From the sequence record PX583170.1: a DNA stretch of 56,260 nt. One strand, 5' to 3'. The notes beneath the pieces were generated by a model. The model did not search any database. It was not told the origin of the DNA and worked only from the letters and a program-made list of their open reading frames with translations. Shown here piece by piece: positions 1 to 56,260 of this stretch. The translations under genes were made by a program, and so were the position numbers. Source of the stretch: a phage. Each line of letters opens with the position of its first letter. The first letter of the stretch is position 1.

Positions 1-135
1 CGGACTTAAAATACGGTCCCTACCCCAACTTTTTCCTACAGCCTATCGGCTTAATGATAACACCAAGTTAGGCGCTTCGCTTATGAGTCAAGGTCAAAGG
101 CAATCAGAGCACGCTGTTGTAACGAGCTAGTCTTA

Positions 136-157
136 CCATTAGTTGGTTGTGATTATG
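136..157 (+). promoter_or_regulatory. Promoter-motif copy P1 (candidate phage-RNAP promoter) upstream of the RNAP gene
   Basis: ccATTAGTTGGttgtgattatg; shares the CATTAGTTG core with 13 other sites. Confidence 0.4.
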
Positions 158-214
158 AATAGGCTACGCAAGTCTAATCCGTTTCAGTTAAATCATAATC
201 AATTGGAGACTATC

Positions 215-2329
215 ATGACTAATGAAGAATATCGTGCACTGGCTGCTGATGGCGCTCGCTTAAAAGAAGAAGGCCACGGTTGGAAAGACGTGCTTGATAC
301 GATGGACCGTTGCAACCAAATGGTTGATGAAATCACTACTGCTACACAATCCGAAACTAAAACCGAAACTAACTTGGAGACTCGCAAAATGACAACTATC
401 TCAACTCAAACTATCAAATCCGTTGTCCCTGCTATCACGGCTCTGGTATACCGTGCTAAAGAGAAACAGAACTACATGCAGCCTCAGACCTGTGCTATTG
501 CTGCTCTTGCAATCTTCAAGATGATGACCTCATTCACTCGTGATGATGTTGTCCCAGCCATTGCAATGGTTGAGCTGGCTTCTGCTTCTATTGCTGATGC
601 CAACCGTTATAACAACGATTTGAAAGCAATGCACTATGTTGACCCAGCTATCAACCTCATTGGTTTGGCTAAGCACTTTGGCTTCATTACCATGAACGAA
701 GACAAGTCATTCCAACAAACTGATACATGGGTTGAACTGGTTACAACCAAAGACACAGCAGTGCCATTCACTGAGCGTGTTACATCTGAATCTCGTCGCA
801 AGCCTTTCGTTAAAGGTGGCAAAGTTAAGCCATCCAAAACTTTGAAAGCTGCAATCGAATTCCTGCAAGATACTGAGTACCATGTGGAGACTGAGATGGT
901 TCGCATCATCCAGTCCATGCTTGAGCAACGTACCTACGGTGGTTTGCAGATGCCAGAAGCAATCCAGACTGAACTTCATGTTTGGAACAATGCTGTAGCA
1001 ATGATGAATCAGGATAAGCTGTATTCTGACTACTTTGCTGATAACCGTGGTCGCCTGTATCATGTAGCATGTGCTGGCCCTAACCCACAATCCTCTGACT
1101 TTGCTCGTTGCTTGTATTCTCACAATGTTGAGAACATCGTTAAGAAGTTTAACGAAGATGGTTCTACTACCATCGCATACAACATGTTCATGGCAGAGCT
1201 GGAAGATATTTCTGGTGGTGAATGGTGCAGTGCTAAGCGTTTAACTTATGTTGCTCAGAATCCAGCTGGTTCACTTGCTCGCATGATGAACATGCCTAAA
1301 GCTGAACGTCCTTCCAAGCCATTCACTTATGTTCGTCTGGCTCTGGATTGGTTCAAGTTTGAGACTACAGGTGAGTGCGATTCTCGTGTAGGCTTTGGCT
1401 TAGATGCTAAATGTTCTGGTACTCAATATCTGGCATTCATTGCTGGTAACATGGAAATGGCTCGTGCAACAGGTCTGGTTGATTCTGAGACTAAAGCATC
1501 TGACCCATACCAGTTATCTCTTCGTGAACTGTTGAAGTTACTCGACCGTTCTTCAATGAAGCCATCTCCTGAAATCATGGATGAGTTCTTGAATCCGAAA
1601 GCTGGTCGTAAGTTTATCAAAACTCCATACATGGCTATCCAATATGGTGGTGGTAAAGCAGCATTGACTGGTTCTTCTGACTTCATTAGCTACATGACAG
1701 AAGCTCTCCAGATTCCTATGGAGAAAGCTGAGGCATTTGCTGAACTGTGTGTAGAAGCAATCCATAACGCATTGGGTGCTAAGATTAACATGTTCATCGA
1801 GAAAGCTGCTGATGCTGCATACAATCGTTGTGTTGAACTTGGCAAAGAGTACATCACATATCGCCACACTGATGGTCAGGTTGTAATGAAGCCTTGCTTC
1901 CCATCTCGTGAAATCTGTGAGGCATTCAGCATTCGTGTTGATAGTCAAACTCGTGTTATCTTTGGTCAGATTCAGGAGAACAAGCCTTGGACCATTCGTG
2001 AGTCCAATCCAACTAAAGAAGAGTTCAAGCGTACCTTCGTTGTTAACTACATCCAAGGTATTGACGCATTGGTTGCTCGTACTGTTGCAGTTAAAGCTAA
2101 AGAAGCTGGTCTTCGTGGCTTTACTTCAATTCACGATTGTTTCCGTTGCTGCTTAGCTGATGCTCCACGTATGATGGAAGTTATTCGTGCAGCATATGTT
2201 GAAATCTTCGTAACCAACAATCAATTCGAGAATCTGTCTAAGCAACTCGGTGGCATTCAGATGTATCATGAGAACATCGTAACCGAAGAGCTTCTGATGA
2301 GCGAACATGCTTACTACTTCTGTCAATGA
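215..2329 (+). CDS. T7-like single-subunit DNA-dependent RNA polymerase (ORF opens at 143; ATG at 215 has SD ggaga)
   Basis: Motif A-like FGLDAKCSGTQYLAF (T7 DGSCSGIQHF), motif B-like KFIKTPYMAIQYGGG, motif C-like TSIHDCF (T7 HDSF). Shorter than T7 RNAP. Confidence 0.85.
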   Translation: MTNEEYRALAADGARLKEEGHGWKDVLDTMDRCNQMVDEITTATQSETKTETNLETRKMTTISTQTIKSVVPAITALVYRAKEKQNYMQPQTCAIAALAIFKMMTSFTRDDVVPAIAMVELASASIADANRYNNDLKAMHYVDPAINLIGLAKHFGFITMNEDKSFQQTDTWVELVTTKDTAVPFTERVTSESRRKPFVKGGKVKPSKTLKAAIEFLQDTEYHVETEMVRIIQSMLEQRTYGGLQMPEAIQTELHVWNNAVAMMNQDKLYSDYFADNRGRLYHVACAGPNPQSSDFARCLYSHNVENIVKKFNEDGSTTIAYNMFMAELEDISGGEWCSAKRLTYVAQNPAGSLARMMNMPKAERPSKPFTYVRLALDWFKFETTGECDSRVGFGLDAKCSGTQYLAFIAGNMEMARATGLVDSETKASDPYQLSLRELLKLLDRSSMKPSPEIMDEFLNPKAGRKFIKTPYMAIQYGGGKAALTGSSDFISYMTEALQIPMEKAEAFAELCVEAIHNALGAKINMFIEKAADAAYNRCVELGKEYITYRHTDGQVVMKPCFPSREICEAFSIRVDSQTRVIFGQIQENKPWTIRESNPTKEEFKRTFVVNYIQGIDALVARTVAVKAKEAGLRGFTSIHDCFRCCLADAPRMMEVIRAAYVEIFVTNNQFENLSKQLGGIQMYHENIVTEELLMSEHAYYFCQ

Positions 2330-2370
2330 TATTAATTGGTCAAGGATGACCACAAACTTGGAGACTTATA

Positions 2371-2571
2371 ATGAACATTCAACAAATCAATCAAATCGAA
2401 AACTGTTTCAATCCTCATCATACCTGTGACATGAGCAACTTATCTCGTCCTACAGTGGAGGAGACTAAAGACTTCTTAGAATTGTTAGCAGAATATAAAC
2501 AAGAATCGCATGTACTATTGCATGCATATTTGCACAATTCTGGATACTTTGATACAGAAATACCGTTCTGA
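2371..2571 (+). CDS. Hypothetical small protein (66 aa)
   Basis: ATG with SD ggaga 8 nt upstream; followed by a terminator. Confidence 0.5.
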   Translation: MNIQQINQIENCFNPHHTCDMSNLSRPTVEETKDFLELLAEYKQESHVLLHAYLHNSGYFDTEIPF

Positions 2572-2576
2572 TATTT

Positions 2577-2603
2577 GGGAGCTTCGGCTCCCTTTTCTTG
2601 TTT
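2577..2603 (+). terminator. Rho-independent terminator
   Basis: GGGAGC-ttcg-GCTCCC perfect 6-bp stem with UUCG loop, then ttttcttgttt. Confidence 0.75.
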
Positions 2604-2623
2604 CAACTAAGTCGCATAACTCA

Positions 2624-2645
2624 GCATTAGTTGTATGTGAATCTA
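2624..2645 (+). promoter_or_regulatory. Promoter-motif copy P2
   Basis: gCATTAGTTGtATGTGAATcta, directly after the terminator and 22 nt before the next gene. Confidence 0.5.
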
Positions 2646-2666
2646 ATAAACCATTTGGAGCATATC

Positions 2667-2834
2667 ATGTTTACAGTGACCTTAGTAACCTATTATGGCA
2701 AGCAAGTTTGTGAGAAGTTTGAGACTTTGAAAGAAGCCCGTGAGTTTGCAGCTCGTGAAGAGAATATTTATGTAGACTGTGAAATCACAGATGGTGATAA
2801 GCAGTATGAAGTTGTAGCTCCTACACTCAACTGA
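2667..2834 (+). CDS. Hypothetical small protein (55 aa; ORF opens at 2631)
   Basis: ATG at 2667 preceded by tttggag SD; the earlier TTG start lies inside the promoter motif. Confidence 0.45.
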   Translation: MFTVTLVTYYGKQVCEKFETLKEAREFAAREENIYVDCEITDGDKQYEVVAPTLN

Positions 2835-2848
2835 TTCCCAATATTCGG

Positions 2849-2858
2849 ACAATATTGT
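2849..2858. promoter_or_regulatory. Perfect 10-bp palindrome ACAATATTGT (operator-like)
   Basis: Self-complementary; flanked by aatattcgg and gcatgtaatattgt. Confidence 0.35.
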
Positions 2859-2884
2859 TGCATGTAATATTGTCCCGATATTCG

Positions 2885-2906
2885 ACATTAGTTGGATATG
2901 AAGTAA
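2885..2906 (+). promoter_or_regulatory. Promoter-motif copy P3
   Basis: aCATTAGTTGGATATGAAgtaa; followed by hairpin CGGAG-aaata-CTCCG at 2913..2927; no gene for ~1 kb downstream. Confidence 0.45.
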
Positions 2907-3277
2907 AGAATACGGAGAAATACTCCGCATGACATATTGAATCATTCTAGAAACATTCAGCATGTCAGCTTTGAGTTACAGTGTTGTAATGATGTGGCAA
3001 TCATTGAACTCCCTGGGTAGGCCACCTACAGTTCCAGCAACCATGACACAGAGTAGGAATATCTATCCGAAACTTGTACTTCACCTATAGCATGTCTATT
3101 AGCTACAGTATTGTTCCTTCTCCTATTATCAAGGCCCACCCACAAGCCGGGAGATAACTTTGACAAGACTGGAACTTTTGGACATGCTTCTTTCTTTCTA
3201 CAAGAATTTGAAAGAAGAGAAGAAGTCGGACTAAGCCTCTCGTTTTCACGCAGAAGCCGCCCCGATTTTGAGCAACA

Positions 3278-3294
3278 AATATTGTGACAATATT
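3278..3294. promoter_or_regulatory. 17-bp inverted repeat AATATTGT-G-ACAATATT (operator-like)
   Basis: 8-bp arms are exact reverse complements; 51 bp beyond the repeat end at 3227. Confidence 0.4.
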
Positions 3295-3525
3295 GTCGCA
3301 GTATGGCATGTAAATATTGCTACAAATTGGCATGTTGGAATGTGGCAGAATTGTTAGAGGACTAATCACCTCGAAGATACAATCGTCTACCAATCTGGCA
3401 TGTTAATTTTGTAACAGTATTTGTGCCAATTTCGCATGTAATAGTTGTATCAGTAATGACCCAATATTCTTGCAACCCGCATGAATACTGGCTTCCAGCC
3501 AAGCGAAGGCTTTATCATCGCATGT

Positions 3526-3542
3526 AATATTGTGACAATATT
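3526..3542. promoter_or_regulatory. Second exact copy of AATATTGT-G-ACAATATT
   Basis: Identical 17-mer to 3278..3294. Confidence 0.4.
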
Positions 3543-3716
3543 GGGATAAAACCCTTTATTTAATTAGTTTTATTATGCTGTACATGGTCGGTTTTCCGTA
3601 CCTGCTTGCTCCAATCTTAATGTGCCAAATACGTTAAGTATGGGAGTAAACCTACGTGAACGTAGTGAACAATGACGCATGTTTAATTGTGACAAAATTC
3701 GTCTATTTGGCAGATG

Positions 3717-3735
3717 AATTAGTTGCAATTAAGCA
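3717..3735 (+). promoter_or_regulatory. Promoter-motif variant P4
   Basis: aATTAGTTGcAATtaagca; core retained, 3' half divergent. Confidence 0.3.
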
Positions 3736-3745
3736 TGTCCATTTA

Positions 3746-3767
3746 TCATTAGTTGCATGTGAATAAG
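3746..3767 (+). promoter_or_regulatory. Promoter-motif copy P5
   Basis: tCATTAGTTGcATGTGAATaag; ~190 nt upstream of the first gene of the unique region. Confidence 0.5.
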
Positions 3768-3955
3768 ACCAAATCTCTGTAAACTCTGCTGAAATTGTGT
3801 GACAGATTTTAGAGAGATTATGTCTCCAAGCTAATCATTGTAGTTTTTCGGCACTTGCTGTGTCACATACTCCCTACAACTTTAAGGTGGATTAAGGTAA
3901 GACAAGACCTCCACAATCGTTCTGTAGGGAGTTTTCCTTAACTTAGGAGAATAAA

Positions 3956-4174
3956 ATGACTCGTTTTAAAGATTTGGAAGATGGTGCAATCTTCTTTACG
4001 CGTGGTGGAGAACATCTGCAAAAAGTTTTGGAAGATGATGTTAATGTAAATGCTGTATTCGTTGGTGATTCTAACATTGGTGTTTTATTAAATGACAATG
4101 AGAGAACTTTTACAGAGGAGGAGTTTAAAGAAATCTCAGCCTCTGATTTAGTTCAAGAGCCAATTGAAGTTTAA
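3956..4174 (+). CDS. Hypothetical protein (72 aa)
   Basis: ATG with SD aggaga. Confidence 0.5.
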   Translation: MTRFKDLEDGAIFFTRGGEHLQKVLEDDVNVNAVFVGDSNIGVLLNDNERTFTEEEFKEISASDLVQEPIEV

Positions 4175-11399: not shown

Positions 11400-11517
11400 A
11401 CCACTTAGGGAAGAAAGGCATTATACACTTATCGCCAAATGGGTGTCAAGCACTTTCTTCATTTATTTAATTTATTCTTATTATTCTTTTTGTTTGGAAT
11501 ATTGGAATAATTCTGAA

Positions 11518-11539
11518 ACATTAGTTGGAATTGAATTAG
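11518..11539 (+). promoter_or_regulatory. Promoter-motif copy P9
   Basis: aCATTAGTTGGAATTGAATtag, with prefix ttctgaaa shared with P8 and P12. Confidence 0.45.
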
Positions 11540-11654
11540 TGTAATTCTGTCTGTACTCTTTTCCATTAGCAATTGTAGAGGAAGTCCACTGCAATAAGCG
11601 CAGCCTCAAACAACCAAGTCTGGACAACTTGGGAAGAGAGTGCAGCACAAAATT

Positions 11655-11676
11655 ACATTAGTTGGAATTGAAGAAA
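11655..11676 (+). promoter_or_regulatory. Promoter-motif copy P10
   Basis: aCATTAGTTGGAATTGAAgaaa. Confidence 0.45.
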
Positions 11677-12309
11677 CAACATCAGATAATAACTTTGTAA
11701 CTCGGTAGACCGTTGCGGCCGCATCGTGCGAGAATGTTCGACTCATTCTACAAAGTTATTTTCGATGGAATGTTTCCATCATATACATTTATCTTTTAAC
11801 ATAGGCCAAAGGGCCGGAATACTTATTCGCAGAAAAGCTATTCACTTGTTATAGGCGATGTATTGGGATGAATTGGAACTAAATAAGCAAGCTGTTAGGG
11901 CTGAATAATTAGAGGGTTATGCCTCATGCTTATGTTAGTCATTCGAAAATAGGTTTGTGCCACAAGCCGCTGGTGCTCTGAGGAAGTCGGACAAACAGGG
12001 CTTAGAGTGGCATAATCCGCACAAAACCGCGCCACCAGCTATGCCAAAGCAGGTGGTTTGGGTGAATGTATTGGGAAGGGTTGCAAAGCCTCTGTGACAC
12101 GCCTGAGCCGCAAGGCGACGACACTCATGTGATTAGCGTATCGCACCCTAACGGGAGTAACCCTTCGCCAATGCAGTTATCCAGAATTGACACAAACGGC
12201 AGGCAGTGGCCCGATTTTCGGCCCTCCTGCGCTGCCCTGTGGCCTGTTTCACGGGCTAAAAGATGAGAAGAGAAGTCACAAACACTGAATCGAAAATTGG
12301 AGAGTTCCT

Positions 12310-28857: not shown

Positions 28858-30466
28858 ATGACTTCCAAGAAGAAAAACAATCTCTCTGTTAAAGTTGCAG
28901 ATGGGTTAGAAAACCTTGTAACGGGGTTGGGCGGTCAGGCAGATAAGTCCACTTTTAACCAGTGGACTTTCTCAAACAAGAACGCGAACTATCGCGAACT
29001 TATGAACCGCTTCCGTGAGGACTGGGTTGCACAGAAAGTGTGTACCGTCATTCCTCAAGATATGACGCGTAAGTGGCGGCATATTGATACCGAAGAAGGA
29101 CGCAAAGCGGATAAGAAACTTCGTATTCGTAAGCTGTTCCGTGAGGCGTATCAATGGGCCAGGTTGTATGGTACTTCGTTTGTTCTGCTCGACCGCGAAC
29201 TTATGAACCGCTTCCGTGAGGACTGGGTTGCACAGAAAGTGTGTACCGTCATTCCTCAAGATATGACGCGTAAGTGGCGGCATATTGATACCGAAGAAGG
29301 ACGCAAAGCGGATAAGAAACTTCGTATTCGTAAGCTGTTCCGTGACTCAAGATATGACGCGTAAGTGGCGGCATATTGATACCGAAGAAGGACGCAAAGC
29401 GGATAAGAAACTTCGTATTCGTAAGCTGTTCCGTGAGGCGTATCAATGGGCCAGGTTGTATGGTACTTCGTTTGTTCTGCTCGACCTAAAAGGTACGGGC
29501 AAACTTGATACACCATTGCGACTGGATAACTTGAAGACTGGATGTATTAAATCCATGAGAGTTATTGACCGCTCACGCTTATTTGCCGCAGGGACTATGG
29601 TTCTGGACCCTTTGAGTCCTCACTATGGTTTGCCAGAGTATTACACTTTGGCTGGGTATCCCGGCTATATCCACTACACTCGTTTCCTTCGGTTCGAGGG
29701 TACTGAACTGCCGCTGTTCGAATTCCAACGCAACATGTGGTATTCTGATTCGGTACTTATTCCACTGCTGAAAACGATTGACCAATTCTACACAACTGCC
29801 GCTGCTGCTGCCAGCCTTGCCCAAGAAGCCACTATTGATGTGGTAACTGTTGAAGGCTTACAATCTCTGCTTACATCACCGGAAGGTGAAGCTGCTGTGA
29901 TGAAGCGCTTCAAACTCATGAAGCTGGCAAAGAGTATTTATAACGTCTTAATTCTCGACAATACGGAGAAGTATGACACCAAGTCAATTGCACTATCTGG
30001 TGTGAAAGATTTGATTTGGGAATACTTGAAGATAGTTGCTGCCGCAGTTGGTATTCCGGCTACACGTTTCCTTTCTGCATCTCCAGACGGTATGAATGCT
30101 ACGGGCGAATCTGACCTCGTAAACTATATCGACTTGTTGACTGGCTTGCAGACTTCTGTGTTCGACCCTCGTTTAGATGTGGTAGACAAGATTGTCCAGG
30201 CGCACTTTGGCATTGAAGAATATAACTACGAATGGTTAGATATCTTCCCTGAATCCAATGTTGAGAAAGCGAAGCGAGCTAAAGATTTGGCATTTGCTGT
30301 TGACCTGCTGGTTAACAACGGTACTATTACTACCGAAGTTGCAAACGAAGTCATGTTCCATTCGGGCGTGTTCGGAACTTGTGACCTTGGCAAACCAAAT
30401 CCTAATCCTCCTAACATCCAAAAGGGTAACGCAAGTGAAGCAAAACCAAAACCTGGTTCAGCTTAA
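28858..30466 (+). pseudogene. Putative portal gene split into two ORFs (28858..29364 and 29285..30466) by a scrambled tandem duplication
   Basis: Removing 29194..29485 (292 bp) gives one continuous 438-codon ORF; portal call is by position after TerL only. Confidence 0.5.
28993..29485. repeat. Scrambled tandem duplication: full 201-bp unit, then two partial copies
   Basis: Unit 28993..29193; copy 29194..29345 matches unit bases 1-152; copy 29346..29485 matches unit bases 62-201. Confidence 0.9.
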
Positions 30467-31982: not shown

Positions 31983-32557
31983 CGCCACCTCCAGCTCCTA
32001 CAGTATCTGCTGTTGCAGGGGCTGTAACTGCGGACGCATCTGCCTCTGATGCAACTGTAACTGTAGACAAACTGTTTAAGTTTGAGAACTCTGCGGCAAC
32101 AGATTATAACTTCGCTGTTACACCTCCCGTGACTGGTGTTTCTGTGGCGGCAAACGGCACTGTGACTGTACTCAGTGCAACGACTACAGCCACTTCTGCG
32201 ACAATCAAGGCAACAAATAAAACAGAGTCTGGCGTAACTGCATCCAAACAGATTACGATTAAGCCTAAGCCTCCTGCACCTACGGTGTCTGCTGTAGATG
32301 GAGTTGTAACGGCTGATGCGTCTTCTACTGATGCCACTGTAACTGTGGACAAACTGTTTAAGTTTGGTAACTCTACAGCAACAGACTACACCTACGCTAT
32401 TACGCCTCCTGTGACTGGCGTTTCTGTGGCTGCAAATGGTACTGTAACCGTCTTAAATGAGACAACTACCGATACCTCTGCCACGGCTAAGGCAACAAAC
32501 AAAACAACCTCCAGCGTGACTGCAACTAAAGAGATTGCTATTACGCCGAAGTCTTAA
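31976..32557 (+). CDS. Two tandem Ig-like (Big_2-like) domains in the -1 frame, reachable only by frameshifting
   Basis: No ATG/GTG/TTG between 31964 and 32128 in this frame; repeat unit PPAPTVSAV...VTGVSVAANGTVTVL...KATNKT occurs twice. Confidence 0.5.
   Translation, partial: AVTPPPAPTVSAVAGAVTADASASDATVTVDKLFKFENSAATDYNFAVTPPVTGVSVAANGTVTVLSATTTATSATIKATNKTESGVTASKQITIKPKPPAPTVSAVDGVVTADASSTDATVTVDKLFKFGNSTATDYTYAITPPVTGVSVAANGTVTVLNETTTDTSATAKATNKTTSSVTATKEIAITPKS
31988..32554. repeat. Diverged tandem duplication, 2 x 282 bp, encoding the two Ig-like domains
   Basis: Protein repeats start at 31988 and 32270; ~80% nt identity by eye. Confidence 0.7.
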
Positions 32558-52683: not shown

Positions 52684-52701
52684 CAATATTGCTACAATAT
52701 T
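52684..52701. promoter_or_regulatory. Near-palindromic CAATATTG-ct-ACAATATT element related to the leader palindromes
   Basis: Lies in an AT-rich tract with poly-T runs and three ACGAGACT(C)-like repeats at 52907..52970. Confidence 0.35.
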
Positions 52702-53168
52702 AAGAGTAATATTAGGAATGCGTAAAGTTCAAAACCAAATGGTACATGGTCGGTCAACTGTACCTCCTTCGGAGAAGGTACCTGGATAGAAATTCGTTCA
52801 TGGTCGGTCAGCTGTATCTAGCCGAAATTTGTTCGAACAGTTGTCTGACTATGAAATAAATTTTTTTTTATAATTTTTTTTTTATTTTTAAATATTGCTA
52901 CAGAATTAATGAGACTAGAATTCGTAACAAAGCTACGAGACTCGAATTGTTTCAATATTAACGAGACTCAATCTGTGACAATATTATAATTTTTATTTTT
53001 GGGCCAGCGGGGAGGGGAAGCCCAACGTCCTATCGGACTTAAAATACGGTCCCTACCCCAACTTTTTCCTACAGCCTATCGGCTTAATGATAACACCAAG
53101 TTAGGCGCTTCGCTTATGAGTCAAGGTCAAAGGCAATCAGAGCACGCTGTTGTAACGAGCTAGTCTTA

Positions 53169-53190
53169 CCATTAGTTGGTTGTGATTATG
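53169..53190 (+). promoter_or_regulatory. Promoter-motif copy P1 (right repeat copy)
   Basis: Identical to 136..157. Confidence 0.4.
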
Positions 53191-53247
53191 AATAGGCTAC
53201 GCAAGTCTAATCCGTTTCAGTTAAATCATAATCAATTGGAGACTATC

Positions 53248-55362
53248 ATGACTAATGAAGAATATCGTGCACTGGCTGCTGATGGCGCTCGCTTAAAAGA
53301 AGAAGGCCACGGTTGGAAAGACGTGCTTGATACGATGGACCGTTGCAACCAAATGGTTGATGAAATCACTACTGCTACACAATCCGAAACTAAAACCGAA
53401 ACTAACTTGGAGACTCGCAAAATGACAACTATCTCAACTCAAACTATCAAATCCGTTGTCCCTGCTATCACGGCTCTGGTATACCGTGCTAAAGAGAAAC
53501 AGAACTACATGCAGCCTCAGACCTGTGCTATTGCTGCTCTTGCAATCTTCAAGATGATGACCTCATTCACTCGTGATGATGTTGTCCCAGCCATTGCAAT
53601 GGTTGAGCTGGCTTCTGCTTCTATTGCTGATGCCAACCGTTATAACAACGATTTGAAAGCAATGCACTATGTTGACCCAGCTATCAACCTCATTGGTTTG
53701 GCTAAGCACTTTGGCTTCATTACCATGAACGAAGACAAGTCATTCCAACAAACTGATACATGGGTTGAACTGGTTACAACCAAAGACACAGCAGTGCCAT
53801 TCACTGAGCGTGTTACATCTGAATCTCGTCGCAAGCCTTTCGTTAAAGGTGGCAAAGTTAAGCCATCCAAAACTTTGAAAGCTGCAATCGAATTCCTGCA
53901 AGATACTGAGTACCATGTGGAGACTGAGATGGTTCGCATCATCCAGTCCATGCTTGAGCAACGTACCTACGGTGGTTTGCAGATGCCAGAAGCAATCCAG
54001 ACTGAACTTCATGTTTGGAACAATGCTGTAGCAATGATGAATCAGGATAAGCTGTATTCTGACTACTTTGCTGATAACCGTGGTCGCCTGTATCATGTAG
54101 CATGTGCTGGCCCTAACCCACAATCCTCTGACTTTGCTCGTTGCTTGTATTCTCACAATGTTGAGAACATCGTTAAGAAGTTTAACGAAGATGGTTCTAC
54201 TACCATCGCATACAACATGTTCATGGCAGAGCTGGAAGATATTTCTGGTGGTGAATGGTGCAGTGCTAAGCGTTTAACTTATGTTGCTCAGAATCCAGCT
54301 GGTTCACTTGCTCGCATGATGAACATGCCTAAAGCTGAACGTCCTTCCAAGCCATTCACTTATGTTCGTCTGGCTCTGGATTGGTTCAAGTTTGAGACTA
54401 CAGGTGAGTGCGATTCTCGTGTAGGCTTTGGCTTAGATGCTAAATGTTCTGGTACTCAATATCTGGCATTCATTGCTGGTAACATGGAAATGGCTCGTGC
54501 AACAGGTCTGGTTGATTCTGAGACTAAAGCATCTGACCCATACCAGTTATCTCTTCGTGAACTGTTGAAGTTACTCGACCGTTCTTCAATGAAGCCATCT
54601 CCTGAAATCATGGATGAGTTCTTGAATCCGAAAGCTGGTCGTAAGTTTATCAAAACTCCATACATGGCTATCCAATATGGTGGTGGTAAAGCAGCATTGA
54701 CTGGTTCTTCTGACTTCATTAGCTACATGACAGAAGCTCTCCAGATTCCTATGGAGAAAGCTGAGGCATTTGCTGAACTGTGTGTAGAAGCAATCCATAA
54801 CGCATTGGGTGCTAAGATTAACATGTTCATCGAGAAAGCTGCTGATGCTGCATACAATCGTTGTGTTGAACTTGGCAAAGAGTACATCACATATCGCCAC
54901 ACTGATGGTCAGGTTGTAATGAAGCCTTGCTTCCCATCTCGTGAAATCTGTGAGGCATTCAGCATTCGTGTTGATAGTCAAACTCGTGTTATCTTTGGTC
55001 AGATTCAGGAGAACAAGCCTTGGACCATTCGTGAGTCCAATCCAACTAAAGAAGAGTTCAAGCGTACCTTCGTTGTTAACTACATCCAAGGTATTGACGC
55101 ATTGGTTGCTCGTACTGTTGCAGTTAAAGCTAAAGAAGCTGGTCTTCGTGGCTTTACTTCAATTCACGATTGTTTCCGTTGCTGCTTAGCTGATGCTCCA
55201 CGTATGATGGAAGTTATTCGTGCAGCATATGTTGAAATCTTCGTAACCAACAATCAATTCGAGAATCTGTCTAAGCAACTCGGTGGCATTCAGATGTATC
55301 ATGAGAACATCGTAACCGAAGAGCTTCTGATGAGCGAACATGCTTACTACTTCTGTCAATGA
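53248..55362 (+). CDS. T7-like single-subunit RNA polymerase, second copy
   Basis: Protein identical to 215..2329. Confidence 0.85.
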   Translation: MTNEEYRALAADGARLKEEGHGWKDVLDTMDRCNQMVDEITTATQSETKTETNLETRKMTTISTQTIKSVVPAITALVYRAKEKQNYMQPQTCAIAALAIFKMMTSFTRDDVVPAIAMVELASASIADANRYNNDLKAMHYVDPAINLIGLAKHFGFITMNEDKSFQQTDTWVELVTTKDTAVPFTERVTSESRRKPFVKGGKVKPSKTLKAAIEFLQDTEYHVETEMVRIIQSMLEQRTYGGLQMPEAIQTELHVWNNAVAMMNQDKLYSDYFADNRGRLYHVACAGPNPQSSDFARCLYSHNVENIVKKFNEDGSTTIAYNMFMAELEDISGGEWCSAKRLTYVAQNPAGSLARMMNMPKAERPSKPFTYVRLALDWFKFETTGECDSRVGFGLDAKCSGTQYLAFIAGNMEMARATGLVDSETKASDPYQLSLRELLKLLDRSSMKPSPEIMDEFLNPKAGRKFIKTPYMAIQYGGGKAALTGSSDFISYMTEALQIPMEKAEAFAELCVEAIHNALGAKINMFIEKAADAAYNRCVELGKEYITYRHTDGQVVMKPCFPSREICEAFSIRVDSQTRVIFGQIQENKPWTIRESNPTKEEFKRTFVVNYIQGIDALVARTVAVKAKEAGLRGFTSIHDCFRCCLADAPRMMEVIRAAYVEIFVTNNQFENLSKQLGGIQMYHENIVTEELLMSEHAYYFCQ

Positions 55363-55403
55363 TATTAATTGGTCAAGGATGACCACAAACTTGGAGACTT
55401 ATA

Positions 55404-55604
55404 ATGAACATTCAACAAATCAATCAAATCGAAAACTGTTTCAATCCTCATCATACCTGTGACATGAGCAACTTATCTCGTCCTACAGTGGAGGAGACTA
55501 AAGACTTCTTAGAATTGTTAGCAGAATATAAACAAGAATCGCATGTACTATTGCATGCATATTTGCACAATTCTGGATACTTTGATACAGAAATACCGTT
55601 CTGA
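55404..55604 (+). CDS. Hypothetical small protein, second copy
   Basis: Identical to 2371..2571. Confidence 0.5.
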   Translation: MNIQQINQIENCFNPHHTCDMSNLSRPTVEETKDFLELLAEYKQESHVLLHAYLHNSGYFDTEIPF

Positions 55605-55609
55605 TATTT

Positions 55610-55636
55610 GGGAGCTTCGGCTCCCTTTTCTTGTTT
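55610..55636 (+). terminator. Rho-independent terminator, second copy
   Basis: Identical to 2577..2603. Confidence 0.75.
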
Positions 55637-55656
55637 CAACTAAGTCGCATAACTCA

Positions 55657-55678
55657 GCATTAGTTGTATGTGAATCTA
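55657..55678 (+). promoter_or_regulatory. Promoter-motif copy P2 (right repeat copy)
   Basis: Identical to 2624..2645. Confidence 0.5.
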
Positions 55679-55699
55679 ATAAACCATTTGGAGCATATC

Positions 55700-55867
55700 A
55701 TGTTTACAGTGACCTTAGTAACCTATTATGGCAAGCAAGTTTGTGAGAAGTTTGAGACTTTGAAAGAAGCCCGTGAGTTTGCAGCTCGTGAAGAGAATAT
55801 TTATGTAGACTGTGAAATCACAGATGGTGATAAGCAGTATGAAGTTGTAGCTCCTACACTCAACTGA
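55700..55867 (+). CDS. Hypothetical small protein, second copy
   Basis: Identical to 2667..2834. Confidence 0.45.
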   Translation: MFTVTLVTYYGKQVCEKFETLKEAREFAAREENIYVDCEITDGDKQYEVVAPTLN

Positions 55868-55917
55868 TTCCCAATATTCGGACAATATTGTTGCATGTAA
55901 TATTGTCCCGATATTCG

Positions 55918-55939
55918 ACATTAGTTGGATATGAAGTAA
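55918..55939 (+). promoter_or_regulatory. Promoter-motif copy P3 (right repeat copy)
   Basis: Identical to 2885..2906. Confidence 0.45.
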
Positions 55940-56260
55940 AGAATACGGAGAAATACTCCGCATGACATATTGAATCATTCTAGAAACATTCAGCATGTCA
56001 GCTTTGAGTTACAGTGTTGTAATGATGTGGCAATCATTGAACTCCCTGGGTAGGCCACCTACAGTTCCAGCAACCATGACACAGAGTAGGAATATCTATC
56101 CGAAACTTGTACTTCACCTATAGCATGTCTATTAGCTACAGTATTGTTCCTTCTCCTATTATCAAGGCCCACCCACAAGCCGGGAGATAACTTTGACAAG
56201 ACTGGAACTTTTGGACATGCTTCTTTCTTTCTACAAGAATTTGAAAGAAGAGAAGAAGTC

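What the first reader, a model, noticed from the sequence alone, without database searches (positions are those of the whole stretch)
2838..3770. Long non-coding leader packed with GCATGTAATATTGT-type repeats and perfect palindromes
The ~1.1 kb between 2835 and 3955 has no plausible gene but at least ten copies of GCATGT(A/T)AAT(A)TTGT-like elements. These include the exact 17-bp inverted repeat AATATTGT-G-ACAATATT twice (3278, 3526) and the perfect palindrome ACAATATTGT (2849). A related CAATATTGctACAATATT lies at the other genome end (52684). Such symmetry is typical of operators bound by a dimeric protein. The 3' half of the promoter motif (GCATGTGAAT) resembles these elements, so they could also be degenerate promoter fragments. 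The region spans the repeat boundary.
Basis: seen in the sequence. Interest (0 to 1): 0.5.

Follow-up and report, generated by a model that had tools for sequence, protein, structure and literature searches.

The report
Conserved structured non-coding RNA unit
The repeat-packed 1.1-kb gap after the phage's RNA polymerase gene is real and better conserved than that gene, and its repeats are mostly the paired strands and matching loops of conserved stem-loops on one strand, most likely a roughly 0.84-kb non-coding RNA of unknown role that is not in any RNA family catalogue.

Summary
The window is a complete Carltongylesvirus-like (Chaseviridae) genome with an exact 3227-bp direct terminal repeat (DTR). 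GCATGT occurs 11 times in the two non-coding regions flanking the DTR, against 0.26 expected, and all copies are on the + strand. The 17-bp palindrome family has 18 matches against 0.33 expected.

The gap (2835-3955) is 97-100% identical among 11 relatives at 3280-3560, more than the RNA polymerase gene. It is recognisable across Escherichia, Pectobacterium, Aeromonas and Erwinia phages.

The "operator" and "degenerate promoter" readings are not what the data favour. GCAUGU is self-complementary in RNA through G·U pairs, and copies pair with each other to clamp long hairpins: E1 (3322-3411) and E1' (3669-3746). Their other helices covary. The loop of hairpin H4 (GCCAAAU, 3624-3630) is the exact complement of the E1' loop (AUUUGGC, 3705-3711) in 20 of 20 lineages, including two variant pairs. 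The + strand folds far better than the - strand.

A conserved phage promoter (P1) lies upstream and a second (P2) directly follows E1'. My best reading is a dedicated P1-driven structured non-coding RNA that spans the DTR cut site. Its function is unproven, and there is no Rfam match.

The parts
2840..2882 (+). 40-nt imperfect palindrome centred on GCATGT 2860-2865. It includes ACAATATTGT at 2849 and GCATGTAATATTGT at 2860, and lies directly upstream of promoter P1.
   Evidence: AATATTCGGACAATATT and AATATTGTCCCGATATT are near reverse complements.
2883..2902 (+). Phage RNA polymerase promoter P1 (CGACATTAGTTGGATATGAA). It is homologous to 'putative phage promoter 1' in the phiEcoM-GJ1 record.
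   Evidence: It is conserved 420-525 nt upstream of E1 in nine lineages.
2903..3746 (+). Proposed non-coding transcription unit, from the P1 start region to the E1' hairpin. The ends are inferred, not mapped.
   Evidence: Conservation, conserved blocks across genera, and structure tests.
2927..2967 (+). Hairpin in which GCAUGACA (2927) pairs with GCAUGUCA (2960).
   Evidence: MFE fold. The A/U is swapped on both sides in 4HA13; in three lineages the central pair is a mismatch, and PM1 also does not fit. Suggestive only.
3120..3153 (+). Hairpin H0: NUCC-[UAUUAUCAAGGCCCACCCACAAGCC]-GGAN', with an invariant interior.
   Evidence: The closing pair is C-G, G-C, U-A or A-U in different genera, and CCCC/GGGG in uv14912. 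L091, the most distant relative, has UUCC...GGAA.
3211..3232 (+). Inner DTR boundary (3227|3228). A + strand polypurine tract GAAAGAAGAGAAGAAG is followed by TC|GGAC.
   Evidence: Exact DTR. The boundary is at the homologous AGTC|G in PM1, and the Faunus record starts there. Mangalitsa and 4HA13 PhageTerm boundaries fall within a few nt.
3278..3294 (.). 17-bp palindrome 1, AATATTGTGACAATATT.
   Evidence: It is conserved in most genera, but its arms are not co-conserved.
3306..3311 (+). GCAUGU outer 'rung'. In full-length folds it pairs with the copy at 3520-3525; an alternative partner is the copy at 3434-3439.
   Evidence: In full-length MFE folds of the other lineages, nested GCAUGU:GCAUGU pairs have mirror-symmetric spacing.
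3322..3411 (+). Stem-loop E1. GCAUGU 3330-3335 pairs with GCAUGU 3398-3403. Three further helices lead to an almost invariant apical part, UUAGAGGACUAAUCACCUCGAAGAUAC.
   Evidence: Individual folds in 15 sequences give the same architecture. Covariation counts are, and the covariance model scores 70-102 bits in all lineages.
3526..3542 (.). 17-bp palindrome 2, preceded by GCATGT 3520. The UUGUGAC core is invariant across genera.
3545..3582 (.). A+T-rich tract. Its sequence varies between genera but its composition is kept.
   Evidence: The 40-bp window starting at 3536 is the fifth least stable in the genome (z = 3.4). Alignment.
3586..3602 (+). Hairpin C, GGUCGG-UUUU-CCG(U)ACC. Related copies lie at 52748-52764 and 52802-52818.
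   Evidence: helix 7: 79.5% paired, one compensatory pair.
3616..3638 (+). Hairpin H4, lying inside the invariant TGTGCCAAATAC. Its loop 7-mer is GCCAAAU (3624-3630).
   Evidence: Stem with 3-4 compensatory pairs. The loop is the complement of the E1' loop in 20/20 lineages.
3669..3746 (+). Stem-loop E1', a paralogue of E1. GCAUGU 3677 pairs with GCAUGU 3733. The apical loop is AUUUGGC (3705-3711), and the hairpin is followed by CAUUU(U). It may be a terminator.
   Evidence: Found by the E1 covariance model. Folds in 16 lineages. The apical stem has 8/8 compensatory pairs. z = -7.9 on the + strand.
3744..3763 (+). Phage promoter P2 (TATCATTAGTTGCATGTGAA). Its GCATGT at 3755 is part of a real promoter.
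52684..52818 (+). Related elements on the other side of the DTR: the palindrome CAATATTGCTACAATATT (52684-52701) and two C-type hairpins.
   Evidence: (conserved in GJ1, SA91KD, PP101, phiA050, EaPF7).

Best explanation
The gap is a dedicated non-coding transcription unit. The phage's own T7-like RNA polymerase starts at promoter P1 (2883-2902, inside the terminal repeat) and transcribes about 0.84 kb of + strand RNA. This RNA crosses the terminal-repeat boundary (3227) and ends at or reads through the long hairpin E1' (3669-3746), which lies directly before promoter P2.

The 'repeats' are the base-pairing vocabulary of this RNA.
- GCAUGU is self-complementary in RNA (G·U, C-G, A-U, U-A, G-C, U·G). 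Copies that look like direct repeats in DNA therefore act as inverted repeats, and they clamp long hairpins as nested rungs.
- AUUGUGAC and AAUAUUG words form helix strands.

Shown: conservation; helices with compensatory changes; loop-loop complementarity that co-varies; strand asymmetry; and a conserved upstream promoter.

Inferred: that the folded strand is RNA rather than displaced + strand DNA; the transcript ends; and the role.

My committed guess for the role is a cis-acting control RNA made at the polymerase-gene/early-gene junction. It would couple phage-polymerase transcription to initiation of DNA replication or processing of the repeat junction. In T7, by comparison, the primary origin (promoters plus an A+T-rich tract with a primase site) lies just downstream of gene 1. 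The strict invariance of GCAUGU and of the E1 apex implies an additional sequence-specific protein partner.
For: (1) Conservation. The region 2840-3955 is more conserved than the flanking genes among 11 relatives: 97-100% at 3280-3560, against 82-95% for the RNA polymerase gene and about 30% for the small ORFs. It is detectable by blastn in other genera.

(2) E1. All 15 sequences fold to the same architecture on their own. On the alignment, 88% of cells pair vs 81% in shuffles (0/500). Twelve pairs have changes on both sides vs 6.4 +/- 1.4 (0/500). The covariation score is 0.243 vs 0.127, and at most 0.108 for slid controls. The inner helix has 5/5 compensatory pairs.

(3) E1' and H4. A covariance model of E1 finds E1' at the homologous place in several lineages. 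In the counts for H4, E1' and the loop contact, 94% of cells pair vs 72% in shuffles, 80 cells show double changes vs 27, and the score is 0.619 vs 0.182 (0/500).

(4) Loop complementarity. The H4 and E1' loops are exact reverse complements 72-86 nt apart in 20/20 lineages. This includes GCCAATT/AATTGGC in PM1, PP101 and uv14912, and GCCGAAT/ATTCGGC in uv31418.

(5) Strand asymmetry. Region 3605-3750 folds to -52.1 kcal/mol (z -7.9) on the + strand and -33.5 (z -2.9) on the - strand. Region 3262-3640 gives -111.8 (z -4.9) vs -94.6 (z -2.8). G·U pairs make up 18% of E1 cells and 10% of H4/E1' cells, and they would be C·A mismatches on the other strand.

(6) Nested rungs. In full-length folds of nine lineages, the E1 and E1' GCAUGU pairs are always recovered, and further copies pair as nested rungs with mirror-symmetric spacing.

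(7) Promoter. P1 is conserved upstream in all nine lineages examined. Terminator-promoter pairs are annotated elsewhere in a relative.

(8) H0. Its closing pair takes four different Watson-Crick forms.
Against: - No transcript data exist. The P1 and P2 promoters are predictions carried over from the phiEcoM-GJ1 record, and the ICTV profile states that chasevirus promoters are not experimentally identified.
- Covariation cannot tell RNA from single-stranded + strand DNA.
- The H4/E1' loop pairing in alignment A4 is paired by construction, because I located the partner by its complementarity. An inverted repeat read by a DNA-binding protein would co-vary in the same way.
- The part inside the terminal repeat (2903-3262) is not thermodynamically unusual (z -1.8).
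- GCAUGU never varies, so pairing alone does not explain it.
- The two 17-bp palindromes show little compensatory support (helices 1, 5, 6).
- The U-tract after E1' is weak, so termination there is uncertain.
- C-type hairpins and a palindrome also occur left of the repeat, beyond a terminator-like hairpin. A DNA-level role would be more natural there.
- Only about 8-10 independent lineages are available, and the shuffle control ignores phylogeny.
Confidence: 0.55

Rival explanations
1. Single-stranded DNA structure at a T7-like replication origin. Transcription from P1 primes rightward synthesis. The displaced + strand folds into E1, C, H4 and E1'. The A+T-rich tract after palindrome 2 melts, and the primase starts the leftward fork at a site such as TGGTC in hairpin C.
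For: - The replication genes are T7-like (SSB, helicase/primase, DNA polymerase, exonuclease, endonuclease VII, ligase), and no initiator is annotated.
- The position just downstream of the RNA polymerase gene, with phage promoters, matches the T7 primary origin. The T7 A+T-rich cluster with a GGGTC site is described in PMC12839067; its placement after gene 1 is from my own knowledge.
- The tract starting at 3536 is the fifth least stable 40-bp window in the genome.
- TGGTC in hairpin C (3585-3589) fits the T7 primase site 5'-(G/T)2GTC-3'.
- The folded strand is the one such synthesis would displace.
Against: - Stems carry 10-18% G·U pairs, including tandem ones. As G·T these are weak in DNA.
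- A 7-bp loop-loop contact and long clamped hairpins are not known requirements of T7-type origins.
- P1 is about 650 bp from the A+T-rich tract.
- The primase specificity of this phage is unknown.
- GC skew gives no origin signal.
Confidence: 0.2
2. Recognition and processing signals for cutting concatemers and duplicating the 3.2-kb terminal repeat. Terminase or a helper would bind the repeated words on both sides of the cut at 3227, as hexamers flank the P1 pac cut. Alternatively, the palindromes would allow fold-back priming.
For: - The inner DTR boundary lies inside the element, at a motif conserved across genera.
- Both boundaries carry CGGAC and follow + strand polypurine tracts.
- TGTGACAATATT lies 56-58 bp outside each boundary, at 3283 and 52976.
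- Palindromes and C hairpins occur on both flanks.
- GCATGT copies lie on both sides of the cut.
Against: - GCATGT is absent from the left boundary region.
- This model does not predict compensatory changes in helices hundreds of bases from the cut, or a strand bias.
- The PYps23T paper reports a different boundary (2339 bp), at promoter cores.
- No small terminase subunit is annotated.
Confidence: 0.12
3. One reading: the symmetric elements are operators on duplex DNA, bound by a dimeric phage or host regulator that controls P1, P2 or early transcription.
For: - There are two perfect 17-bp palindromes with odd centres, the size of classical operators, plus 10-bp ACAATATTGT palindromes.
- They are conserved in most genera and sit next to promoters.
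- AATATT is 16 observed vs 0.77 expected.
Against: - Palindrome arms are lost on one side in GJ1 and PYps16N (palindrome 1), PM1 and PP101 (palindrome 2) and Y2 (palindrome 1), without loss of the rest of the element.
- GCATGT is asymmetric and on one strand only.
- There is no helical phasing: spacings are 24, 68, 36 and 86.
- No helix-turn-helix or other DNA-binding Pfam domain was found in 20 small early proteins.
- The helices covary.
Confidence: 0.1
4. The elements are decayed copies of the phage promoter.
For: Promoter P2 contains GCATGTGAAT.
Against: - The elements lack ATTAGTT.
- The promoter position matching the C of GCATGT is variable (G, C, T, A) in the window's promoters.
- P1 orthologues read ATAT, AATT, AAGT or ATGC where the elements are invariably ATGT.
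Confidence: 0.02

Closest known systems
T7 gene 1 to gene 1.1 intergenic control region (promoters phi1.1A/B, RNase III site R1.1, primary origin)
   Same: It lies immediately downstream of the single-subunit RNA polymerase gene. It holds phage promoters, processing-type hairpins and an A+T-rich tract with a (G/T)2GTC-type site. The replication genes are T7-like (the T7 layout is partly from my own knowledge).
   Different: This one is about five times longer, spans a 3.2-kb terminal-repeat boundary, is built from GCAUGU-clamped hairpins with a co-varying loop-loop match, and is conserved across genera at the nucleotide level. No sequence similarity was tested or claimed.
phi29 prohead (packaging) RNA
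   Same: It is a phage-encoded structured RNA, encoded near a genome end, in which two loops carry complementary sequences that co-vary among relatives (AACC/GGUU in phi29; PMC2241910).
   Different: There is no Rfam hit to the pRNA family or to any other. The size is about 840 nt against 120-174 nt. The loop match is 7 nt. The host phage has a terminase and terminal repeats, not protein-primed DNA. No three-way-junction homology was shown.
ColE1 RNA II / mitochondrial LSP-CSB primer transcripts
   Same: A long structured transcript made across an origin region by (in mitochondria) a T7-like polymerase, where the fold or hybrid formation decides priming. The ColE1 RNA I/II loops are 7-nt kissing loops (from my own knowledge).
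   Different: No antisense partner, G-quadruplex block or RNase H site was identified here, and origin function is untested.
Short repeat arrays next to the T7 terminal repeat, and the repeat-rich injection-stop region at the inner end of the T5 terminal repeat
   Same: Dense short repeats and palindromes in non-coding DNA abutting a terminal repeat, of unknown or debated role (from my own knowledge, not checked in the library).
   Different: Those are described as DNA-level repeats. Here compensatory changes support single-strand folding.
Rho-independent terminator followed by a phage promoter
   Same: E1' sits directly before P2 and the 2840-2882 palindrome directly before P1. The same terminator-promoter pairing is annotated at three other places in SA91KD.
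   Different: E1' is about 78 nt long, has an invariant loop that matches another hairpin's loop, and has only a weak U tract. It was not called by the terminator scan.

Membership tests
Chasevirus phage-polymerase promoter (CATTAGTTGnATGTGAA) | Upstream ATTAGTT block followed by GnATGTGAA at fixed spacing | tested here: not met
   Only 2883-2902 (P1) and 3744-3763 (P2) fit. The other ten GCATGT sites have no ATTAGTT upstream.
Chasevirus phage-polymerase promoter (CATTAGTTGnATGTGAA) | Elements should drift together with the promoter consensus in other genera | tested here: not met
   P1 orthologues vary at ATGT, while the elements are invariant GCATGT.
Any curated RNA family (Rfam 15) | Score at or above the gathering threshold of a covariance model | tested here: not met
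   No hit in the whole window. Only chance-level hits (E >= 0.1) appear in 2400-4100. No tRNA or tmRNA was found.
Conserved structured RNA (generic criteria) | Helices kept by compensatory changes beyond shuffled and slid controls | tested here: met
   E1, H4/E1', the whole core and the H0 closing pair.
Conserved structured RNA (generic criteria) | The region is transcribed in the sense of the structure | not testable with these tools
   A conserved predicted promoter lies upstream. No expression data were available.
Operator set for a dimeric repressor | Both half-sites of each palindrome conserved together | tested here: not met
   There are one-sided losses in GJ1, PYps16N, PM1, PP101 and Y2. 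Pairing of the palindrome arms is 77-87% (87% palindrome 1; 77% outer arms of palindrome 2; its three inner pairs 95%), with few double changes.
Operator set for a dimeric repressor | A cognate DNA-binding protein encoded nearby | tested here: inconclusive
   No DNA-binding Pfam domain was found in 20 small proteins at E <= 0.05. Small phage proteins often escape Pfam.
T7-type primary origin | Phage promoter(s) followed by an A+T-rich tract carrying a primase site, downstream of the polymerase gene | tested here: inconclusive
   The promoter, the A+T-rich tract (fifth least stable) and TGGTC are all present. They are spread over 700 bp and the primase specificity is unknown.
T7-type primary origin | Replication initiates here | not testable with these tools
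   No replication data.
phi29-type packaging RNA | Match to the pRNA model; 120-174 nt three-way junction; complementary loops | tested here: not met
   There is no Rfam match. Only the complementary-loop feature is shared.
pac/terminase recognition region | Mature DNA end lies within the element at a conserved sequence | tested here: met
   The boundary at 3227 is homologous to the PM1 boundary, to the Faunus record start, and approximately to the Mangalitsa and 4HA13 boundaries.
pac/terminase recognition region | The same recognition words at both cut sites | tested here: inconclusive
   CGGAC, polypurine tracts, TGTGACAATATT, palindromes and C hairpins are shared. GCATGT is not.

The most novel reading that the evidence does not exclude
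The P1 transcript is a new class of large (about 0.84 kb) structured phage RNA that acts in trans at the terminal-repeat junction. Another is that its polypurine tract forms an R-loop exactly at the cut site (3211-3227) and so marks or primes the cutting and duplication of the 3.2-kb repeat.
Probability: 0.06. Interest if true: 0.9.

Novelty: new variant of a known kind. Interest (0 to 1): 0.62.

Why it matters
Chaseviruses combine a T7-like transcription and replication set with a myovirus body and 3-kb terminal repeats. Their promoters, origin and end-formation signals have not been defined experimentally.

This region is the most conserved non-coding DNA in the genome. It sits exactly where polymerase gene, terminal-repeat cut site and early genes meet.

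If the stem-loops, clamped by self-complementary GCAUGU words and carrying a co-varying loop-loop match, are indeed RNA, they add a large structured RNA family that current catalogues lack.

The work also gives concrete, mutable targets (E1, E1', the H4 loops, the boundary motif) for testing how these phages start replication, process concatemers and time early expression. These phages are being developed against E. coli, Erwinia and Pectobacterium.

More generally, a "direct repeat" in DNA can be an inverted repeat in RNA through G·U pairs.

Tried and rejected
- Rfam, at both gathering and permissive thresholds, and tRNA/tmRNA scans found nothing.
- The sigma-70 promoter scan found no more sites than chance and none convincing on the + strand of the gap. 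A sigma-54 reading of TGGCATGT fails on the GG-N10-GC spacing (by eye).
- Pfam on 20 small early or terminal-repeat proteins found no DNA- or RNA-binding domain. One call failed on a frame error.
- Literature. The ICTV profile and the 4HA13, ST32, PP101, PYps and 'Tiny' papers say nothing on this region. The phiEcoM-GJ1 and Y2 papers are not held. A search for 'GCATGT' with 'bacteriophage' returned only unrelated hits.
- Helical phasing of GCATGT was rejected. The spacings of 24, 68, 36 and 86 are not multiples of 10.5.
- Long-range pairing of palindrome 1 with palindrome 2 is predicted in the window's MFE fold. GJ1 and Y2 changes are not compensated, so I do not claim it.
- RNAalifold on the plain MAFFT alignment of the whole core gave a weak consensus (-17 kcal/mol), because variable hairpins are misaligned. 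Element-wise analysis was needed.
Only 4 of 120 loci were true relatives.
- The most distant relative, L091 (60% polymerase identity), keeps H0, a 24-nt GCATGT pair and a 1.5-kb gap, but gave no E1 model hit.
- Mutually exclusive hairpins or a pseudoknot at 3490-3525 looked attractive by eye, but individual folds disagree. I do not claim them.
Full report
**What the window is.** The window is a complete phage genome with an exact 3227-bp direct terminal repeat (DTR), 1-3227 = 53034-56260. Its closest relatives are Carltongylesvirus phages of the family Chaseviridae, such as ST32 and PO103-1, at about 93% identity over this region.

The layout at the left end, taken from the annotation of relatives and the ORF list, is:
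- T7-like RNA polymerase gene, 215-2329
- terminator-like hairpin, 2577-2592
- two small variable ORFs
- non-coding gap, 2835-3955
- the first early gene, from 3956

Phage-polymerase promoters of the type annotated in phiEcoM-GJ1 (CATTAGTTGnATGTGAA) occur at 2627, 2888 (P1), 3749 (P2), 6727 and further on. The flagged interval therefore contains one predicted promoter (P1) and ends at another (P2).

- GCATGT occurs 12 times on the + strand between 2508 and 3755, and once on the - strand.
- Against the rest of the genome, the two DTR-flanking non-coding regions hold 11 GCATGT (0.26 expected), 9 CAATATT (0.14 expected) and 16 AATATT (0.77 expected).
- The 17-mer AATATTGTGACAATATT is exact at 3278 and 3526. 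Its family, with up to 3 mismatches, has 18 matches vs 0.33 in shuffles, including 52685-52701 on the other side of the DTR.
- GCATGT-N2-6-WTTGY occurs 8 times vs 1.7 expected.

**Conservation.** Among 11 Carltongylesvirus relatives the gap is more conserved than its coding neighbours. Positions 3280-3560 are 97-100% identical, against 82-95% for the polymerase gene and about 30% for the small ORFs.

The region is also detectable by blastn in Sabourvirus, Suwonvirus, Faunusvirus, Loessnervirus and an Aeromonas phage. All of these have a 1.0-1.3-kb gap after the polymerase gene.

In multi-genus alignments the GCATGT hexamers are invariant islands with conserved spacing (24, 68, 36 nt). Other blocks are almost invariant too: TTGTTAGAGGACTAATCACCTCGAAGATAC, ATTGTGACAATATTGGGA and TGTGCCAAATAC.

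**The terminal-repeat boundary lies inside the element.**
- The right boundary reads GAAGAAGTC|GGAC and the left boundary reads CCTAT|CGGACTTAAAATACGGTCCC. Both carry CGGAC and both follow a + strand polypurine tract.
- PM1, whose record carries both repeats, has a 2665-bp DTR with boundaries at the homologous positions.
- The Faunus record starts at the same place. The PhageTerm boundaries of Mangalitsa and 4HA13 fall within a few bases.
- The left-boundary motif is invariant across genera.
- The PYps23T paper reports 2339 bp. In the sequence, that repeat is bounded on both sides by the promoter core CATTAGTTGGA, so this conflict stays open.

**Not degenerate promoters.** The elements lack ATTAGTT. 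The promoter position corresponding to the C of GCATGT is variable. P1 orthologues in other genera read ATAT, AATT, AAGT or ATGC where the elements invariably read ATGT.

**The repeats pair with each other on the + strand.** GCAUGU is self-complementary in RNA: G·U, C-G, A-U, U-A, G-C, U·G. Its complement ACAUGC is not.

*E1.* The segment 3322-3411 folds on its own into the same stem-loop in all 15 sequences tested. GCAUGU 3330 pairs with GCAUGU 3398. Flanking pairs, a UGN/N'CA helix and a 5-bp inner helix follow, leading to an invariant apex.

On the alignment:
- 12 pairs show changes on both sides, vs 6.4 +/- 1.4 in shuffles (0/500).
- The covariation score is 0.243 vs 0.127, and at most 0.108 when partners are slid.
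- The inner helix is 98% paired with 5/5 compensatory pairs.
- The N/N' pair is A-U, G-C, C-G or G·U.

*E1'.* A covariance model of E1 scores 70-102 bits in every lineage. It also finds a weaker paralogue at 3669-3746 and at the homologous places elsewhere. There, GCAUGU 3677 pairs with GCAUGU 3733, AUUGUGAC pairs with GUUGCAAU, and the apical stem differs in sequence in nearly every lineage.

*H4 and the loop match.* TGTGCCAAATAC is the top of a further hairpin, H4 (3616-3638), with a covarying lower stem. Its loop 7-mer GCCAAAU is the exact reverse complement of the E1' apical loop AUUUGGC, 72-86 nt downstream, in 20 of 20 lineages. This includes GCCAATT/AATTGGC in PM1, PP101 and uv14912, and GCCGAAT/ATTCGGC in uv31418.

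Counts for H4, E1' and the loop contact are 94% of cells paired vs 72% in shuffles, 80 double-change cells vs 27, and a score of 0.619 vs 0.182.

Caveat: I located the E1' loop by its complementarity, so the 100% pairing of that helix is by construction. The evidence lies in the variant lineages, in the fixed distance, and in the fact that the partner is always an apical loop. The chance of a given 7-mer falling in such a position is about 0.001 per lineage.

*H0 and hairpin C.* Hairpin H0 (3120-3153) has a closing pair that is C-G, G-C, U-A or A-U in different genera. Hairpin C (3586-3602) has relatives at 52748 and 52802.

*Nested rungs.* In full-length folds of nine lineages, the E1 and E1' pairs are always recovered. 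Extra GCAUGU copies pair as nested rungs with mirror-symmetric spacing, for example 25,35|35,25.

**Which strand, and RNA or DNA.**
- Region 3605-3750: -52.1 kcal/mol (z -7.9) on the + strand, -33.5 (z -2.9) on the - strand.
- Region 3262-3640: -111.8 (z -4.9) on the + strand, -94.6 (z -2.8) on the - strand.
- G·U pairs are 18% of E1 cells and 10% of H4/E1' cells.

This excludes a symmetric cruciform and points to the + strand. That strand is the sense of all genes and of P1, which is conserved 420-525 nt upstream of E1 in all nine lineages examined.

RNA is the simplest reading. Displaced + strand DNA during T7-like, transcription-primed replication remains possible. The part inside the DTR is not thermodynamically unusual (z -1.8), although it has conserved blocks and H0.

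**What it may do (inference).** E1' lies directly before P2, and a 40-nt palindrome (2840-2882) lies directly before P1. The same terminator-then-promoter arrangement is annotated elsewhere in SA91KD. So the gap looks like a separate non-coding unit, running from P1 to E1'.

The replication genes are T7-like, with no annotated initiator. The tract after palindrome 2 is the fifth least stable 40-bp window in the genome. It is followed by TGGTC, which fits the T7 primase site class. By position this resembles the T7 control region after gene 1.

I therefore favour a cis-acting structured RNA tied to replication start and/or repeat-junction processing. The strict invariance of GCAUGU and of the E1 apex points to an unidentified protein partner as well.

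Alternatives are terminase recognition, duplex-DNA operators at the 17-mers, and a trans-acting RNA. These are not mutually exclusive, and none can be settled here.

**Comparison with known systems.** There is no Rfam family match, and the chasevirus papers held in the library do not mention this region.

The nearest analogies are:
- the T7 gene 1/1.1 control region
- primer transcripts such as ColE1 RNA II
- phi29 packaging RNA, for the co-varying complementary loops

Membership in any of these was either tested and not met, or cannot be tested with these tools.

**Limits.**
- Only about 8-10 independent lineages are available.
- The shuffle controls ignore phylogeny.
- Promoters are predictions.
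- The metagenome scan was truncated.
- No expression, replication or packaging data exist.

Noticed in passing
window 52900-52995 vs 1-215: The host sigma-70-type early promoters lie just outside the DTR. There are three GAGACTnGAAT-containing repeats, one of them annotated in phiEcoM-GJ1. Only the right-end copy of the RNA polymerase gene has them upstream in linear virion DNA. The left copy has only a weak phage-promoter-like site at 139.
   Followed up: partly
window 53005-53040 and 3211-3232; L013/L018 (PM1): Both DTR boundaries share CGGAC and follow + strand polypurine tracts (GGGGAGGGGAAG and GAAAGAAGAGAAGAAG). The same holds in PM1. The right-hand tract is the 3' arm of a pyrimidine/purine inverted repeat (3188-3223).
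   Followed up: partly
L019/L020 (Yersinia phage PYps23T): The published 2339-bp terminal repeat of PYps23T is bounded on both sides by the 11-nt promoter core CATTAGTTGGA. It ends at the equivalent of P1, not at the boundary seen in the window, PM1, Mangalitsa and 4HA13. This may be an artefact of the PCR-based mapping, or a real difference.
   Followed up: partly
window 3764-3955: The leader from P2 to the first early gene is 93-100% conserved. It contains a long hairpin (CUCCCUACA...UGUAGGGAG, 3871-3933) followed by UUUUCCUU just before the ribosome-binding site, which looks like an attenuator.
   Followed up: no
window 3361-3368 vs promoters: The invariant apical loop of E1 (ACUAAUCA) contains ACUAAU, the complement of the promoter core ATTAGT. 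CUAAUCA also recurs at 3832-3838. This may be chance.
   Followed up: no
window 11461-12066: This is the third least stable 40-bp window in the genome. It lies directly upstream of the promoter-like site at 11521 and is followed by several hundred bases with few ORFs. None of the GCATGT or palindrome words occur there.
   Followed up: no
window 28993-29436 and 31988-32551: There are two families of long direct repeats: 152 nt in 3 copies and 282 nt in 2 copies, inside the structural gene region.
   Followed up: no
L023-L072 (IMG/VR contigs from metagenome 3300045988): The palindrome AATATTGTGRCARTATTG also hits about 30 unrelated contigs of 120-160 kb from one metagenome, once each. This could be chance in A+T-rich DNA, or a shared site in another phage group.
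   Followed up: no
PP952070.1 (hits H24/H61): A record named 'Staphylococcus phage Pel53' (host Staphylococcus hyicus) is 88% identical to this chasevirus region. The host label looks doubtful.
   Followed up: no
window 2508-2539: A further GCATGT-ACTATTGC-ATGC-ATATTTGCACAATT cluster lies inside the 66-aa ORF 2371-2571, just before the terminator. It is upstream of P1 and so is not part of the proposed RNA.
   Followed up: no
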